A stretch of 64,000 nucleotides of DNA. Origin: Escherichia phage vB_EcoM_P8. Where the stretch lies: the sequence record PV390659.2. The stretch is one strand, 5' to 3'. The notes below the pieces were generated by a model. That model searched no databases. It worked only from the letters and a program-made list of their open reading frames with translations, and was not told the DNA's origin. A program made the translations under genes and the position numbers. Shown piece by piece: positions 41,875 to 48,160 of this stretch; position 1 is the stretch's first letter, and the number at the start of each line of letters is the position of its first letter.

Positions 41875-42210
41875 ATGTCTGACATTCACGTAACTGGAAT
41901 TTCACAAGTAAACATTCGCTGCCAATTTAAAACTGTACCTGGGGTGACTCATATTACTTTATCACATGACCCATATTCTCGTGGAACACAGTTAACTGGT
42001 GTAATTAAGTTTTTCGGTGGAATTGGCGGAAACGAATTTACTATAGGCGATGACGAAATTGTTGGTTGTAAATTAAAAGTTCAGAAGGGAGTGTTAGAAC
42101 TTTTTAGTGATGAAGTTTTTGATGAAATCTCACGAGCAGTTAATAAAGGAATGTTAACGTTAATTAAAATGATTAAAGCCAGTGGATATGTTCCCGATCC
42201 TTTATATTAG
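41875..42210 (+). CDS. hypothetical protein
   Basis: 111 aa. Confidence 0.5.
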   Translation: MSDIHVTGISQVNIRCQFKTVPGVTHITLSHDPYSRGTQLTGVIKFFGGIGGNEFTIGDDEIVGCKLKVQKGVLELFSDEVFDEISRAVNKGMLTLIKMIKASGYVPDPLY

Positions 42211-42218
42211 GAGATAAT

Positions 42219-43247
<1,029 letters not shown>

Positions 43248-43248
<1 letters not shown>

Positions 43249-44108
43249 TGAAACAATACCAATTTTTAATTAAAGATATCCTGGAAAATGGTTACGAAAC
43301 CGATGACCGAACAGGCACAGGAACAATTGCTTTGTTTGGTACTAAATTACGCTGGGATTTAACTAAAGGTTTTCCTGCGGTAACAACTAAAAAATTAGCA
43401 TGGAAAGCCTGTATTGCTGAGCTAATATGGTTTTTATCGGGAAGCACAAATGTCAATGATTTGCGATTAATTCAACATGATTCATTAATTCAAGGCAAAA
43501 CAGTCTGGGATGAAAATTACGAAAATCAAGCAAAAGATTTAGGATACCATAGCGGTGAACTTGGTCCAATTTATGGAAAACAGTGGCGCGATTTTGGTGG
43601 CGTAGATCAAATTATAGAAGTTGTTGAACGTATTAAAAAACTGCCAAATGATAGACGTCAAATTGTTTCAGCATGGAATCCGGCAGAACTTAAGCAAATG
43701 GCATTACCGCCTTGTCATATGTTCTATCAGTTTAATGTGCGTAATGGCTATTTGGATCTGCAGTGGTATCAACGTTCGGTAGATGTTTTCCTCGGTCTTC
43801 CATTTAATATTGCATCATATGCTACGTTAGTTCATATTGTAGCTAAGATGTGTAATCTTATTCCAGGAGATTTGATATTTTCTGGTGGTAATACTCATAT
43901 CTATATGAATCACGTAGAACAATGTAAAGAAATTTTGCGTCGTGAACCTATGGATTTATGCGAATTACAATTAAAATTTCCAGATGAATTTGATGAATGG
44001 GACACAGAATCGCAGGTATTTTGGTTGAGTCAATTCGCAAAGCCGCATAATTTTGTTCTTAACAACTATGTATCTCACCCTCCTATTAAAGGAAAAATGG
44101 CGGTGTAA
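43248..44108 (+). CDS. td: thymidylate synthase, intron-less
   Basis: 286 aa from MKQYQ; uninterrupted through the active-site region PPCH. Confidence 0.9.
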
Positions 44109-44131
44109 TTTTAATTTAATTGAGAGGATAT

Positions 44132-44395
44132 ATGATTTTACGATTTAAGGATACTTCTGGTGTCGTTCTTTTTACACTTCCTAACCCAAGTGAGTTAGAA
44201 GTTCCAGGACCAAATCAGCCTATTATCATTTATGGCAAAAAATATTATACTCATAAAATGACCCGTGAGTATTTTGATAATAAAATTTCCACAGTTAAAA
44301 CTTCTTCTGACTGTTATTATGATATTACTGTTTTAACGGAAAAACAATATGACGAATTATTACCGCGCGGGCCGTCTATGCCAGGTAGTGAATAA
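44132..44395 (+). CDS. hypothetical protein
   Basis: 87 aa from ATG with GAGAGGA SD; overlaps next ORF in a different frame. Confidence 0.45.
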
Positions 44396-44675
44396 ATATA
44401 AATCCGACTTTGATGTTAATATTCACCGTGGTACATTTTGGGGAAATTACGTCGGTAAAGATGCTGGCAGCCGGGAGGCTGCCATTGAATTATTCAAAAA
44501 AGATTTTATACGTCGAATTAAATCCGGAGAAATAACTAAAGCACATTTAGAGCCTTTACGTGGAATGAGGCTAGGATGCACATGTAAACCAAAGCCGTGT
44601 CATGGTGATATAATAGCTCATATAGTTAACCGATTGTTTAAAGACGATTTTCAAGTTGAGGACTTATGCAATTAA
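44349..44675 (+). CDS. hypothetical Cys/His-motif protein (DUF4326-like, tentative)
   Basis: 108 aa; [21 protein letters not shown]...[11 protein letters not shown]; start uncertain; stop overlaps nrdA start. Confidence 0.5.
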
Positions 44676-46930
44676 TTAATGTTATCAAAAGTAGTGGTGT
44701 TTCTCAGAGCTTTGACCCGCAAAAAATTATTAAAGTTTTATCTTGGGCAGCTGAAGGAACATCTGTAGATCCTTATGAATTATATGAAAATATTAAATCA
44801 TATCTCCGTGATGGAATGACAACTGATGACATTCAGACTATTGTCATTAAGGCTGCTGCGAATTCTATTTCAGTTGAAGAGCCTGATTATCAATATGTAG
44901 CTGCACGCTGTTTAATGTTCGCTCTTCGTAAGCATGTTTACGGGCAATATGAGCCCCGTTCATTTATTGATCACATTTCTTACTGTGTAAATGAAGGTAA
45001 ATACGACCCTGAATTGTTATCAAAATATTCTGCAGAAGAAATTACATTTTTAGAATCAAAAATTAAGCACGAGCGGGATATGGAATTTACTTATTCCGGG
45101 GCGATGCAATTAAAAGAAAAATATCTAGTTAAAGATAAAACCACTGGTCAAATTTATGAAACTCCGCAGTTTGCATTTATGACTATTGGAATGGCATTGC
45201 ATCAAGATGAACCTGTTGATAGATTAAAACATGTTATTCGTTTTTATGAAGCAGTATCTACTCGACAGATTTCATTACCAACTCCTATTATGGCTGGTTG
45301 CCGTACTCCAACTCGGCAGTTTAGTTCATGCGTTGTTATTGAGGCAGGTGATTCGCTGAAGTCTATCAATAAGGCTTCCGCTTCAATTGTTGAATATATC
45401 TCCAAACGAGCTGGAATCGGCATTAACGTTGGTATGATTCGTGCCGAAGGTTCTAAGATTGGCACAGGTGAAGTGCGTCATACTGGTGTTATTCCTTTTT
45501 GGAAACATTTTCAGACTGCTGTTAAATCATGTTCACAGGGCGGAATTCGTGGCGGCGCTGCTACTGCTTATTATCCTATTTGGCATTTGGAAGTTGAAAA
45601 TCTTCTCGTTTTGAAAAATAACAAAGGCGTAGAAGAAAACCGTATCCGTCATATGGATTATGGTGTTCAGCTGAATGACCTAATGATGGAACGATTCGGA
45701 AAGAACGATTACATTACTTTGTTTAGTCCGCATGAAATGGGTGGCGAACTTTATTATTCTTATTTTAAAGACCAAGACCGCTTCCGTGAATTGTACGAAG
45801 CTGCAGAAAAAGACCCTAATATTCGTAAAAAGCGTATTAAAGCTCGTGAACTATTTGAATTGCTCATGACTGAACGTTCAGGAACAGCAAGGATTTATGT
45901 ACAGTTCATTGATAATACGAATAACTATACTCCATTTATTCGTGAAAAGGCACCTATTCGCCAGAGTAACTTGTGTTGTGAAATTGCTATTCCAACAAAT
46001 GATGTGAATAGTCCTGATGCCGAAATTGGATTGTGTACGTTATCTGCATTTGTGTTAGATAACTTCGATTGGCAAGACCAAGATAAAATTAATGAATTAG
46101 CAGAAGTTCAAGTTCGTGCTCTTGATAATCTTTTGGATTACCAAGGATATCCAGTTCCTGAAGCAGAAAAAGCTAAAAAGCGTCGAAATCTTGGTGTAGG
46201 TGTTACTAACTATGCAGCTTGGCTGGCAAGTAATTTTGCTTCTTATGAAGATGCTAACGATTTAACACATGAACTATTTGAGAGATTACAGTATGGACTC
46301 ATTAAAGCATCCATTAAACTCGCCAAAGAAAAAGGACCTTGCGAATATTATTCAGACACTCGTTGGTCTCGAGGCGAATTACCTATCGACTGGTACAATA
46401 AAAAGATTGACCAAATCGCAGCTCCAAAATACGTTTGTGACTGGTCGTCGCTGCGGGAAGACCTTAAGCTCTTTGGCATCCGTAATAGCACATTATCAGC
46501 ACTTATGCCATGTGAGTCATCTTCCCAAGTTTCTAACAGTACAAACGGTATCGAGCCTCCACGTGGACCAGTCTCTGTTAAAGAGTCAAAAGAGGGTTCC
46601 TTTAATCAAGTCGTGCCCAATATTGAGCATAACATAGACTTATATGATTATACGTGGAAATTAGCTAAGAAAGGTAATAAACCTTATCTTACACAGGTAG
46701 CTATTATGCTTAAATGGGTGTGTCAATCAGCTTCAGCGAATACATATTATGACCCGCAGATTTTTCCAAAAGGAAAGGTTCCAATGTCTGTGATGATTGA
46801 TGACCTTTTGTACTTTTGGTATTTTGGCGGAAAAAATTTCTATTATCATAATACCCGCGATGGTTCTGGTACTGATGATTATGAAATAGAAACTCCAAAA
46901 GCTGAAGATTGTTCATCCTGTAAATTATGA
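44666..46930 (+). CDS. nrdA: ribonucleotide reductase large subunit NrdA
   Basis: 754 aa equals T4 NrdA length; ATP-cone N-terminus, catalytic Cys motifs. Confidence 0.95.
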   Translation: MQLINVIKSSGVSQSFDPQKIIKVLSWAAEGTSVDPYELYENIKSYLRDGMTTDDIQTIVIKAAANSISVEEPDYQYVAARCLMFALRKHVYGQYEPRSFIDHISYCVNEGKYDPELLSKYSAEEITFLESKIKHERDMEFTYSGAMQLKEKYLVKDKTTGQIYETPQFAFMTIGMALHQDEPVDRLKHVIRFYEAVSTRQISLPTPIMAGCRTPTRQFSSCVVIEAGDSLKSINKASASIVEYISKRAGIGINVGMIRAEGSKIGTGEVRHTGVIPFWKHFQTAVKSCSQGGIRGGAATAYYPIWHLEVENLLVLKNNKGVEENRIRHMDYGVQLNDLMMERFGKNDYITLFSPHEMGGELYYSYFKDQDRFRELYEAAEKDPNIRKKRIKARELFELLMTERSGTARIYVQFIDNTNNYTPFIREKAPIRQSNLCCEIAIPTNDVNSPDAEIGLCTLSAFVLDNFDWQDQDKINELAEVQVRALDNLLDYQGYPVPEAEKAKKRRNLGVGVTNYAAWLASNFASYEDANDLTHELFERLQYGLIKASIKLAKEKGPCEYYSDTRWSRGELPIDWYNKKIDQIAAPKYVCDWSSLREDLKLFGIRNSTLSALMPCESSSQVSNSTNGIEPPRGPVSVKESKEGSFNQVVPNIEHNIDLYDYTWKLAKKGNKPYLTQVAIMLKWVCQSASANTYYDPQIFPKGKVPMSVMIDDLLYFWYFGGKNFYYHNTRDGSGTDDYEIETPKAEDCSSCKL

Positions 46931-46981
46931 TATAATTTGACTCACGGACGAGTCACTATCTATTAACTAAGCGGAAAATTT

Positions 46982-48160
46982 ATGAGCACAGTTTTTAATA
47001 CAAATCCAGTTGATGTTTTAAAAGAACCTATGTTCTTCGGTTCAGGTCTTGGTATTGCGCGTTATGATATTCAACGTCATAAAGTTTTTGAAGATTTAAC
47101 CGAAAAGCAGTTGTCATTTTTCTGGCGTCCTGAAGAAGTAAACTTGATGATGGATGCTGCACAATTTAACAAGCTTCCTCAGTATCAGCAAGATATTTTT
47201 ACTAATAACCTGAAGTATCAATCACTTTTGGATAGCATTCAGGGTCGTGCACCGTCTGCTGTACTTATGTCGTTAATTTCAGACCCAAGTCTTGATACAT
47301 GGGTTGCTACATGGACTTTTAGTGAAACTATTCACAGTCGTTCATATACTCATATCATGCGAAATCTTTATACTGATCCATCAAAGGTATTTGATGAGAT
47401 TGTATTAGATGAAGATATTATGAAACGTGCTGAGTCCATTGGTCGTTATTACGATGATGTTCTCAATAAGACCCGTGAATGGGAAAATGCTAAAGAATTT
47501 GTAGAACTAGCTAAAGAATCTCCTGATGCTGATTTTCGTTTAAATCGAGCTATTAAACAAGAAGCCGAAGCTAAACGAGCACTAATGAAATCTCTTTATC
47601 TTTGCCTTCATGTAATCAACGCATTGGAAGCTATTCGTTTTTACGTATCTTTCGCATGTACCTTTAACTTCCATAAAAACATGGAAATCATGGAAGGTAA
47701 TGCTAAGATTATGAAGTTTATTGCGCGTGATGAGCAACTTCATCTTAAAGGCACTCAATATATTATTCGTCAACTTCAACTTGGCACTGACGGTGATGAA
47801 TGGGTTAAAATTGCTCAAGAGTGTGAACAAGAAGCAGTTGATATTTTCATGGAAGTTAACCGTCAAGAAAAAGACTGGGCAGTTCATTTATTTAAAGATG
47901 GCGATGTTCCTGGATTAAATACAAATAGCATGTGGAGCTTTATTGATTACTTAACTGTATCTCGTATGAAACAGTGCGGTCTTCCATGCCCAATTACCGA
48001 TGCTCCGGTTAAACATCCATATCCTTGGATTCGTGAATACCTTAATTCTGATAATGTTCAATCCGCGCCGCAAGAAGTAGAACTGTCATCTTACCTTGTT
48101 GCACAGATTGATAATGATGTTGATGATAAAGTTATGATGAGTTTTAAAAAATATTTTTAA
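46982..48160 (+). CDS. nrdB: ribonucleotide reductase small subunit NrdB, intron-less
   Basis: 392 aa continuous ORF; directly follows nrdA with 51 nt gap. Confidence 0.95.
   Translation: MSTVFNTNPVDVLKEPMFFGSGLGIARYDIQRHKVFEDLTEKQLSFFWRPEEVNLMMDAAQFNKLPQYQQDIFTNNLKYQSLLDSIQGRAPSAVLMSLISDPSLDTWVATWTFSETIHSRSYTHIMRNLYTDPSKVFDEIVLDEDIMKRAESIGRYYDDVLNKTREWENAKEFVELAKESPDADFRLNRAIKQEAEAKRALMKSLYLCLHVINALEAIRFYVSFACTFNFHKNMEIMEGNAKIMKFIARDEQLHLKGTQYIIRQLQLGTDGDEWVKIAQECEQEAVDIFMEVNRQEKDWAVHLFKDGDVPGLNTNSMWSFIDYLTVSRMKQCGLPCPITDAPVKHPYPWIREYLNSDNVQSAPQEVELSSYLVAQIDNDVDDKVMMSFKKYF

What the first reader, a model, noticed from the sequence alone, without database searches (positions are those of the whole stretch)
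44132..44675. Insert between td and nrdA: two overlapping ORFs in different frames, the second with a [11 protein letters not shown] motif
An 87-codon ORF (frame 2) and a 108-codon ORF (frame 3) overlap by 47 nt. The second has an N-terminal [21 protein letters not shown] and a C-terminal [11 protein letters not shown] pattern that I associate, tentatively, with DUF4326-type proteins, and its stop overlaps the nrdA start. The arrangement is compatible with two coupled genes, a +1 frameshift product, or a sequencing indel in one gene. I do not recall T4 having this cassette at this position.
Basis: partly seen in the sequence, partly recalled or inferred. Interest (0 to 1): 0.6.

Follow-up and report, generated by a model that had tools for sequence, protein, structure and literature searches.

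The report
T4 genes nrdA.2 and nrdA.1
The two overlapping reading frames between td and nrdA are the long-annotated phage T4 genes nrdA.2 and nrdA.1, present in hundreds of T4-like genomes, so this is an ordinary known cassette whose only open question is what the small DUF4326 protein NrdA.1 does.

Summary
An 87-codon ORF (44132-44395) and a 108-codon ORF (44349-44675) overlap by 47 nt, and the second overlaps the nrdA start by 10 nt.

The claim that T4 lacks this cassette is wrong. T4 (NC_000866) annotates nrdA.2 and nrdA.1 at the same place, with the same lengths and the same two overlaps. The DNA alignment averages 98% column identity, and the proteins are 95% and 96% identical. 488 phage records carry the stretch over at least 80% of its length.

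ORF1 is a full-length Pfam DUF5496 protein.

They are two genes, not a frameshift product or an indel artefact:
- Mosigvirus carries the same two genes joined TAATG.
- A T4 proteome and transcriptome study classes each as its own protein.
- DUF4326 proteins occur widely on their own.

The 47-nt overlap is specific to Tequatrovirus. It looks like a small junction indel that removed the old stop and start. It is the most variable part of the cassette.

The parts
44122..44128 (+). Shine-Dalgarno-like GAGAGGA, ending 3 nt before the nrdA.2 start codon
   Evidence: Read directly from the sequence. The motif is also present in T4 in the alignment.
44132..44395 (+). nrdA.2: 87-aa protein of unknown function, Pfam DUF5496, orthologue of T4 NP_049847
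   Evidence: ORF list. Pfam DUF5496 positions 1-87 of 87, E 6e-60. 95% identical to T4 NrdA.2. phrog_2458. The family is tiny: 9 clusters among 1.84 billion representatives, and only five hits of 76-87 aa look like true relatives.
44349..44395 (+). 47-nt region coding in two frames: the last 15 codons plus stop of nrdA.2 and the first 15 codons of nrdA.1. This junction form is specific to Tequatrovirus.
   Evidence: Coordinates; T4 has the same overlap. It is the most variable part of the cassette: 8 of 47 variable nt, against 18 of 217 and 6 of 280 in the flanks, over 7 genomes. In NrdA.2, 9 of 15 tail residues vary against 9 of 72 elsewhere (Fisher p 2e-4). Mosigvirus has TAATG here instead.
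44349..44675 (+). nrdA.1: 108-aa DUF4326 protein, orthologue of T4 NP_049846
   Evidence: ORF list. 96% identical to T4 NrdA.1. Pfam DUF4326. phrog_464. 2114 homologues by profile search. AlphaFold2 model with pLDDT 91.9 and pTM 0.85.
44382..44618 (+). DUF4326 domain (NrdA.1 residues 12-90)
   Evidence: Pfam envelope 12-90. Model elements: strand 12-15, helices 42-59 and 64-70, strand 74-77, helix 85-96.
44577..44609 (+). Signature loop C77-T-C79-K-P81-K-P-C84-H85-G86-D87, lying between strand 74-77 and helix 85-96
   Evidence: C77, C79, P81, C84, H85 and G86 are invariant in the 74-sequence alignment. They stay invariant when distant members from Ackermannviridae, Schitoviridae, Otagovirus and a SLOG fusion are added. 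R27 and N33 are also invariant.
44658..44662 (+). GAGGA Shine-Dalgarno of nrdA, embedded in NrdA.1 codons V-E-D
   Evidence: Read from the sequence. The C-terminal '...EDL' of NrdA.1 homologues is conserved. That this conservation reflects the embedded nrdA ribosome-binding site is inference.
44666..46930 (+). nrdA (ribonucleotide reductase large subunit); its first 10 nt overlap the end of nrdA.1
   Evidence: ORF list. Same arrangement in T4 and Mosigvirus.

Best explanation
The segment holds two separate, independently translated early genes of a T4-type phage (Tequatrovirus). They are nrdA.2, a DUF5496 protein of 87 aa, and nrdA.1, a DUF4326 protein of 108 aa. They sit in the conserved frd-td-nrdA-nrdB nucleotide-metabolism gene block.

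Shown:
- Identity with the T4 genes.
- Two-gene organisation.
- ATG 44349 is the only in-frame start that keeps the conserved N-terminal strand of NrdA.1.
- Wide conservation of the cassette.

Inferred: the 47-nt overlap is a derived accident of the Tequatrovirus lineage. Relative to Mosigvirus, about 9 nt holding the old nrdA.2 stop and nrdA.1 start (GTAATGAAAATG) are missing, and 2 nt are added. nrdA.2 therefore reads on to the next stop. nrdA.1 uses an upstream ATG that exists only here (TAT-G, against TAC-G in Mosigvirus). The two resulting protein tails are weakly constrained.

Inferred, about 0.35 likely: NrdA.1 is a small cysteine-dependent hydrolase or phosphatase-like enzyme. Its invariant C-x-C-x-P-x-x-C-H-G-D loop, together with R27 and N33, would bind and process a phosphorylated ribose or ADP-ribose-derived small molecule. 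This is the Aravind laboratory's proposal for DUF4326.

NrdA.2 is a lineage-restricted accessory protein with no inferable activity.

The confidence of 0.9 refers to the identity and the two-gene organisation, not to the biochemical function.
For: Identity with T4:
- T4 has the same two genes, lengths and overlaps.
- Proteins are 96% and 95% identical; the DNA alignment averages 98% column identity.
- 512 phage records match the stretch and 488 of them cover at least 80% of it.

Two genes rather than one:
- Pfam DUF5496 matches full length and DUF4326 matches as a separate domain.
- Mosigvirus has both genes joined by TAATG.
- Karamvirus and an Acinetobacter phage have a 4-nt ATGA junction after a different upstream small ORF. 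JS98 has no nrdA.2.
- T4 omics classes NrdA.2 as early RNA and middle protein, and NrdA.1 as early RNA and late protein, as separate UniProt entries (PMC9697503 supplement).

Start codon:
- The conserved core begins at C11-(R/Q)-V-V-N-K-Y.
- No other in-frame ATG, GTG or TTG lies between 44349 and Cys11.
- The ATG is kept in all variant N-termini seen: MTNY.., MPNY.., MNTY...

Junction history:
- DNA alignment A6.
- Mosigvirus NrdA.2 matches DUF5496 positions 1-77 of 87 only.
- Distant NrdA.2 relatives are 77-79 aa and lack the tail.
- The overlap is the most variable stretch.

Function:
- The model is confident and the Cys/His/Arg/Asn residues are invariant.
- Vibrio phage Vp_R1 carries a DUF4326 domain fused to a SLOG domain, verified here (PF10686, E 3e-16).
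- A viral structure match is named 'NADAR domain with protein tyrosine phosphatase' in Marseillevirus.
- Published predictions: PMC9503650 and PMC7824862.
Against: Function is not tested anywhere.
- The literal C-X5-R phosphatase motif is absent. The sequence reads C79-KPKPC-H85.
- The four clustered Cys/His could equally be a metal site.
- The Shine-Dalgarno before nrdA.1 is weak (GGA, 10 nt upstream), so how it is initiated inside nrdA.2 is unexplained.
- The direction of the junction change is inferred from a few outgroups. Acinetobacter phages also have long NrdA.1 N-termini.
- The T4 proteomics data show that both proteins were detected. They do not by themselves exclude a minor fusion product.
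Confidence: 0.9

Rival explanations
1. A single protein is made by a programmed +1 ribosomal frameshift inside 44349-44395, fusing NrdA.2 to NrdA.1.
For: The frames are offset by +1 and overlap by 47 nt. The Shine-Dalgarno before the nrdA.1 ATG is weak.
Against: - In Mosigvirus the same two genes are offset by +2 and separated by TAATG. A fusion is therefore not conserved.
- Other genera place an unrelated small ORF before nrdA.1 with an ATGA junction, or none at all.
- I read no slippery or stop-codon-stimulated +1 motif in the overlap.
- The local RNA fold is no better than shuffles (z 0.51).
- The overlap is the least conserved part, the opposite of a recoding signal.
- T4 omics lists two proteins with different accumulation classes.
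Confidence: 0.02
2. One ordinary gene was split by a sequencing indel in this assembly.
For: None beyond the overlap itself. A few public assemblies do carry frameshifted nrdA.1 variants (P0027, P0041, P0050), but the frame changes lie downstream of the overlap, inside nrdA.1.
Against: - ORF boundaries are identical, with no length change over 544 nt, in the window, T4 and five metagenome-derived genomes. 488 phage records cover at least 80% of the queried stretch.
- Each half is a complete, separate Pfam family.
- No homologue with a fused architecture appeared among the listed NrdA.1 relatives or the 9 NrdA.2 hits.
Confidence: 0.01
3. NrdA.1 really starts downstream, for example at GTG 44388. 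The true overlap would then be the 8-nt GTGAATAA, and the first 13 codons would be untranslated.
For: - Residues 1-10 are variable and carry 3 of the 4 differences from T4; the fourth is at residue 12.
- The model is less confident there (mean pLDDT 68 for residues 1-10).
- Pfam DUF4326 begins at residue 12.
- Cys11 is not conserved family-wide.
Against: - Cys11 and residue 12 (R/Q) are nearly invariant across Straboviridae homologues.
- A GTG 44388 start would remove V13 and the start of strand 12-15.
- Relatives start 3 residues before the Cys (MKxC).
- The upstream ATG is preserved in every variant despite high local variation.
- AGG lies only 3 nt before GTG 44388, too close for a Shine-Dalgarno.
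Confidence: 0.05
4. NrdA.1 is an accessory or redox factor of the phage ribonucleotide reductase rather than an ADP-ribose-related enzyme. Its cysteines would serve thiol exchange or metal delivery.
For: - Its stop overlaps the nrdA start, and the nrdA ribosome-binding site lies inside it.
- Its protein accumulation class matches NrdA and NrdB in T4.
- In other Straboviridae it lies directly after nrdB.
- The protein has invariant cysteines.
Against: - Aeromonas T4-like phages keep the gene between td and denA with no nrdAB beside it.
- Outside Straboviridae it sits next to unrelated genes: recombination nuclease in PhiSH19, DNA polymerase and dNMP kinase in Vp_R1, and hypothetical genes elsewhere.
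- It occurs in archaeal and giant viruses and in fusions with SLOG.
- 'NrdA-like' product names on homologues are name transfer, not a fusion.
Confidence: 0.1
5. NrdA.1 is a non-enzymatic zinc-binding module in which C77/C79/C84/H85 act as ligands. It would bind a protein or a nucleic acid.
For: Four invariant Cys/His lie within nine residues. No convincing enzyme fold match was found.
Against: - Invariant R27, N33 and D87 and the strand-loop-helix placement of the motif look more like an active site.
- Adjacent C84-H85 rarely both ligate one metal (general knowledge).
- Repeated fusions to ligand-binding or enzymatic nucleotide domains are reported.
Confidence: 0.15

Closest known systems
Phage T4 nrdA.2 / nrdA.1 (NC_000866 T4p236 / T4p235; NP_049847 / NP_049846; UniProt P32280 / P32279)
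   Same: Same position between td and nrdA. Same lengths (87 and 108 aa). Same 47-nt and 10-nt overlaps. 95% and 96% amino-acid identity; the DNA alignment averages 98% column identity.
   Different: Four substitutions in each protein. Two of the four in NrdA.2 and all four in NrdA.1 lie in the shared 47 nt. In the surroundings, the window has an extra 68-aa ORF between frd and td, lacks the td and nrdB introns, and lacks mobE and nrdB.1.
Mosigvirus cassette (Escherichia virus vB_Eco_mar005P1: td - NrdA.2 - NrdA.1 - nrdA)
   Same: Homologous NrdA.2 (DUF5496, E 5e-13) and NrdA.1. Same gene order. Same 10-nt nrdA.1/nrdA overlap.
   Different: The junction is TAATG (1-nt overlap) preceded by GAGGA. 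NrdA.2 is 84 aa without the [10 protein letters not shown] tail. NrdA.1 is 101 aa and starts MKMC. The relative frame is +2 rather than +1.
Pfam DUF4326 (PF14216) proteins of phages, archaeal viruses and giant viruses, including SLOG-DUF4326 fusions such as Vibrio phage Vp_R1 YP_010672666
   Same: Same domain and the same invariant C-x-C-x-P-x-x-C-H-G motif with R and N.
   Different: The window protein is a stand-alone single-domain form. No partner domain or partner gene suggesting a pathway is fused or consistently adjacent.
Rhodanese / Cys-phosphatase superfamily (Cdc25, dual-specificity phosphatases, PTEN). This is the published assignment for DUF4326 (PMC9503650).
   Different: There is no C-X5-R; His85 occupies the Arg position relative to C79. 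The domain is far smaller (about 80 residues, two main strands). All fold scores are below significance.
NADAR / YbiA (DUF1768) ADP-ribose and N-glycoside hydrolases

Membership tests
T4 NrdA.1 orthologue group / Pfam DUF4326 (PF14216) | Score above the Pfam gathering threshold over the whole domain | tested here: met
   77.5 bits against a cut-off of 25, E 1.3e-21, profile positions 2-81 of 82.
T4 NrdA.1 orthologue group / Pfam DUF4326 (PF14216) | Invariant signature residues: I-x-R, W-G-N, and C-x-C-x-P-x-x-C-H-G-D | tested here: met
   I25, R27, N33, C77, C79, P81, C84, H85 and G86 are present and invariant in alignment A5, which includes distant members. All but I25 are also invariant in A3.
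T4 NrdA.1 orthologue group / Pfam DUF4326 (PF14216) | Orthology with T4 gene nrdA.1: near-identity and the same genomic slot immediately upstream of, and overlapping, nrdA | tested here: met
   104 of 108 residues identical. T4 annotation shows the same slot and overlaps.
T4 NrdA.2 / Pfam DUF5496 (PF17600) | Full-length match above the gathering threshold, and orthology with T4 nrdA.2 | tested here: met
   199.7 bits against a cut-off of 27, positions 1-87 of 87. 83 of 87 residues identical to T4 NrdA.2.
Rhodanese / Cys-phosphatase superfamily | Significant fold similarity to a solved rhodanese, Cdc25 or PTP/DSP domain | tested here: inconclusive
Rhodanese / Cys-phosphatase superfamily | Active-site loop C-X5-R between a strand and a helix | tested here: not met
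   The sequence reads C79-K-P-K-P-C84-H85, so the position six residues after either C77 or C79 is not Arg. The placement after strand 74-77 and before helix 85-96 does fit.
Rhodanese / Cys-phosphatase superfamily | Phosphatase or sulfurtransferase activity through a cysteine nucleophile | not testable with these tools
   Needs enzymology with C79S and C84S mutants.
NADAR (YbiA, PF08719) | Profile match, or significant fold match, to NADAR | tested here: not met
Programmed ribosomal frameshift genes (prfB-type +1, dnaX-type -1) | A conserved shift site with a stimulatory element, and relatives that encode the fused product | tested here: not met
   I read no such motif in the overlap. The RNA fold has z 0.51. 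The overlap is the most variable stretch. In Mosigvirus the same two genes have a stop and a start between them.
Anti-phage-defence-related catalogues (PADLOC) and NCBIfam named families | Any profile match | tested here: not met
   No PADLOC hit at E up to 1. No NCBIfam hit at E up to 0.1.

The most novel reading that the evidence does not exclude
NrdA.1 (DUF4326) is a previously unassayed phage enzyme that removes or rearranges a phosphate on ADP-ribose-derived or ribose-phosphate molecules. It could work in T4's own NAD/ADP-ribosylation economy (the Alt, ModA and ModB transferases, and the RNA-repair genes rnlA and pseT nearby), or it could destroy host immune signals. On this reading, the Tequatrovirus-specific 47-nt overlap would tune its expression relative to NrdA.2 and NrdA.
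Probability: 0.25. Interest if true: 0.55.

Novelty: already known. Interest (0 to 1): 0.1.

Why it matters
As a genome feature it does not matter much. It is the reference T4 arrangement, annotated for decades and repeated in hundreds of genomes.

Two small points have some value:
- The case shows how a small junction indel can turn an ordinary TAATG gene junction into a 47-nt dual-coding overlap without harming either protein.
- DUF4326 is found in more than 1,900 phage records, and also in archaeal and giant viruses. It has a confident predicted fold, no solved relative and no tested function. T4, the best-developed phage system, carries a minimal stand-alone copy that would be a convenient entry point for biochemistry.

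Tried and rejected
- PDB sequence searches with both proteins and with the 74-sequence NrdA.1 profile gave nothing below E 0.08.
- The AlphaFold2 model of NrdA.2, built from a shallow alignment, had pLDDT 42 and was unusable. No fold search was run on it.
- The NrdA.2 profile searched against 1.84 billion representatives found only a handful of T-even relatives. It also gave two repetitive large proteins (P0136, P0140) that I regard as spurious.
- The promoter and terminator scan found no more sites than shuffled sequence in the scanned region. No MotA-box-like site lies in 43901-44720.
- The RNA fold of the overlap was not better than shuffles.
- PADLOC and NCBIfam gave no hits.
- hhalign of NrdA.2 against the Karamvirus PG7 ORF in the same slot gave a probability of 0.3%. 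That slot therefore holds an unrelated ORF there.
- I considered that the 'ribonucleotide reductase NrdA-like' annotations on distant homologues meant a fusion with NrdA. They are 122-aa stand-alone proteins, so this is name transfer only.
- I considered a general functional link to ribonucleotide reductase. I rejected it as synteny limited to Straboviridae.
- A literature search for T4-specific names (td-nrdA intergenic, P32279, P32280) found nothing in the held library.

Full report
**Observation.** The window between the td stop (TAA 44106-44108) and nrdA (ATG 44666) holds two forward-strand ORFs, exactly as described. One runs 44132-44395 (87 codons, frame 2). The other runs 44349-44675 (108 codons, frame 3). 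They share 47 nt, and the second ends 10 nt inside nrdA. The quoted peptide motifs are residues 13-33 and 77-87 of the second ORF. Neither ORF is a chance frame. The first matches Pfam DUF5496 from end to end (E 6e-60). The second matches Pfam DUF4326 (E 1.3e-21). They also match phage protein families phrog_2458 and phrog_464.

**What it is.**
- The stretch 44000-44800 is 100% identical to Escherichia phage vB_EcoM_BMB16. It matches 512 phage records, almost all Tequatrovirus, and 488 of them cover at least 80% of it.
- The T4 reference (NC_000866) annotates nrdA.2 (142951-143214) and nrdA.1 (142671-142997) between td and nrdA. The lengths are the same, the mutual overlap is the same 47 nt, and the overlap with nrdA is the same 10 nt.
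- The window proteins are 95% and 96% identical to the T4 ones. The DNA alignment averages 98% column identity, with a single 3-nt gap upstream of nrdA.2.

**One gene, a frameshift, or two genes?** The evidence points to two genes.
- In Mosigvirus (vB_Eco_mar005P1) the same two genes are present. nrdA.2 ends and nrdA.1 starts in TAATG, preceded by GAGGA.
- In Karamvirus PG7 and Acinetobacter phage AM101, nrdA.1 follows a different small ORF through an ATGA junction. The PG7 ORF is not detectably related to NrdA.2.
- Dhakavirus JS98 has nrdA.1 and no nrdA.2.
- DUF4326 proteins occur on their own in 1,949 phage records. A profile search returns 2,114 homologues.
- The supplement of a T4 proteome and transcriptome study classes NrdA.2 as early RNA and middle protein. 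It classes NrdA.1 as early RNA and late protein, the same class as NrdA and NrdB. They are listed as separate proteins (PMC9697503).
- The window, T4 and five metagenome-derived genomes keep identical ORF boundaries over 544 nt with no indel.
- I read no shift-prone motif in the overlap, and its RNA fold is no better than shuffled sequence (z 0.51).

**Start of nrdA.1.** The conserved core of the Straboviridae proteins begins at Cys11-(Arg/Gln)-Val-Val-Asn-Lys-Tyr. The model places a strand at residues 12-15. The only in-frame start codon upstream of Cys11 is ATG 44349. It is retained in all variant N-termini seen, MTNY.., MPNY.. and MNTY... A start at GTG 44388 would remove part of the strand. 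Cys11 is not conserved in distant family members, so this argument is strong but not absolute.

**Origin of the 47-nt overlap (inference).** The Tequatrovirus junction was aligned with the Mosigvirus junction.
- Tequatrovirus lacks 9 nt of the Mosigvirus stretch GTAATGAAAATG, which holds the nrdA.2 stop and the nrdA.1 start. It has 2 extra nt a little upstream.
- The relative frame of the two genes is therefore +1 instead of +2.
- nrdA.2 then reads on to the next stop, adding the tail [10 protein letters not shown]. Mosigvirus NrdA.2 and the few distant relatives (77-79 aa) lack this tail. Mosigvirus NrdA.2 matches only positions 1-77 of the 87-position DUF5496 model.
- nrdA.1 uses an ATG that exists only in Tequatrovirus (CAATATGAC against GAATACGAA).
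- The shared 47 nt are the most variable part of the cassette rather than the most constrained. 17% of sites vary there, against 8% in the rest of nrdA.2 and 2% in the rest of nrdA.1. In NrdA.2, 9 of 15 tail residues vary against 9 of 72 elsewhere (Fisher p 2e-4).
- Both tails thus look like tolerated by-products of a junction accident, not a regulatory device.

**What NrdA.1 may do.**
- A 74-sequence alignment gave a confident AlphaFold2 model with pLDDT 91.9 and pTM 0.85. Its elements are strand 12-15, helices 42-59 and 64-70, strand 74-77, a loop, and helix 85-96.
- The invariant residues are I25, R27, N33, and C77, C79, P81, C84, H85 and G86 in the loop between the second strand and the following helix. 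They remain invariant when members from Ackermannviridae, Schitoviridae, Otagovirus and a fusion protein are added.
- Against predicted viral structures, the model finds DUF4326 proteins of phages, haloarchaeal viruses, pithoviruses, pandoraviruses and marseilleviruses. Some of these are multi-domain.
[quoted passage not shown] They propose that it processes terminal phosphates on ribose in ADP-ribose or its breakdown products (PMC9503650, PMC7824862).
- I verified one such fusion. Vibrio phage Vp_R1 encodes a 212-aa protein with SLOG (PF10686, E 3e-16) followed by DUF4326 (E 1.4e-23).
- I could not confirm superfamily membership. The fold scores are sub-threshold, and the literal C-X5-R motif is absent (C79-KPKPC-H85).
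- I therefore adopt the enzyme hypothesis as the most likely mechanism at about 0.35. A metal-binding module and a reductase accessory role are the rivals.

**Genomic context.**
- The link to ribonucleotide reductase is synteny rather than a general association. In RCIP0006 and POP12 the gene lies after nrdB (td-nrdA-nrdB-DUF4326-denA-rnlA). In Aeromonas phages phiAS4 and AsFcp_4 it lies between td and denA with no nrdAB at that locus.
- Outside Straboviridae its neighbours are unrelated.
- 'NrdA-like' product names on distant homologues are name transfer.

**Dispensability.** In the supplement of the CRISPRi-ART study (RNA-targeting dCas13d knockdown) of T4, nrdA.1 and nrdA.2 are scored 'Not Fit', that is, without a fitness effect. 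So are nrdA, td and frd (PMC11879866).

**NrdA.2.** The family is tiny. Only 9 clusters were hit among 1.84 billion representatives. Five of them (76-87 aa) look like true relatives, two are short fragments, and two are repetitive large proteins that I regard as spurious. The AlphaFold2 model is unreliable (pLDDT 42). No function can be inferred.

**Verdict.** The DUF4326 guess is right. The claim of an unusual insert, and the frameshift and indel alternatives, are not supported. The feature is already known, and its interest is low.

Noticed in passing
window 43042-43248 (+): The real difference from T4 in this neighbourhood is here. A 68-aa ORF ([17 protein letters not shown]...) lies between frd and td, joined ATGA to the frd stop and TAATG to the td start. 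In T4, frd and td overlap directly by 4 nt. The ORF matches phrog_9550 (unknown function) and has no Pfam hit. It occurs in 136 phage records, against 512 for the nrdA.2/nrdA.1 stretch.
   Followed up: partly
window 43248-44108 (td), 46930-46982 (nrdA/nrdB gap), 46982-48160 (nrdB): td and nrdB are uninterrupted here (286 and 392 codons). Only about 50 nt separate nrdA from nrdB. T4 carries group I introns with I-TevI and I-TevIII in td and nrdB, and mobE plus nrdB.1 between nrdA and nrdB. This phage therefore lacks all four mobile or optional elements.
   Followed up: partly
window 44658-44668: The nrdA Shine-Dalgarno GAGGA lies inside the NrdA.1 codons for V-E-D. The C-terminal '...EDL/EDI' of NrdA.1 homologues is conserved across Straboviridae although it lies outside the DUF4326 domain. 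The conservation may reflect the embedded ribosome-binding site rather than protein function.
   Followed up: no
window about 44437-44500 (the TTTTGGGG and AAAAAA runs inside nrdA.1): A few public assemblies carry frameshifted nrdA.1 products. Examples are Escherichia phage HY03 (61 aa, P0050) and clusters P0027 and P0041, which begin in the 41-aa alternative frame 44410-44535. The frame changes lie inside nrdA.1, in a stretch that contains two homopolymer runs, and these clusters hold only 1-6 sequences. They are probably sequencing errors or sporadic pseudogenes.
   Followed up: no
loci L017 (RCIP0006), L018 (POP12), L019 (phiAS4), L020 (AsFcp_4): Within Straboviridae the DUF4326 gene keeps its place in the td...denA-rnlA interval. 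The nrdAB pair lies after it, before it, or not at this locus at all. This suggests that nrdAB, or the DUF4326 gene, moved independently within the block.
   Followed up: partly
locus L011 (phage JS98) 1396-1791: The annotated JS98 nrdA.1 (131 aa) starts 41 nt inside td. Comparison with its relatives suggests the true start is the internal MRVCRVVNKY methionine, which would give about 97 aa. This is a probable start-codon mis-annotation in the reference record.
   Followed up: no
window 46705-46750 (+): The only MotA-box-like match (TATGCTTAA) in 42000-47500 lies in the 3' end of nrdA, about 275 nt upstream of nrdB. From memory, T4 has a separate nrdB promoter that this could correspond to. 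I did not check this further.
   Followed up: no
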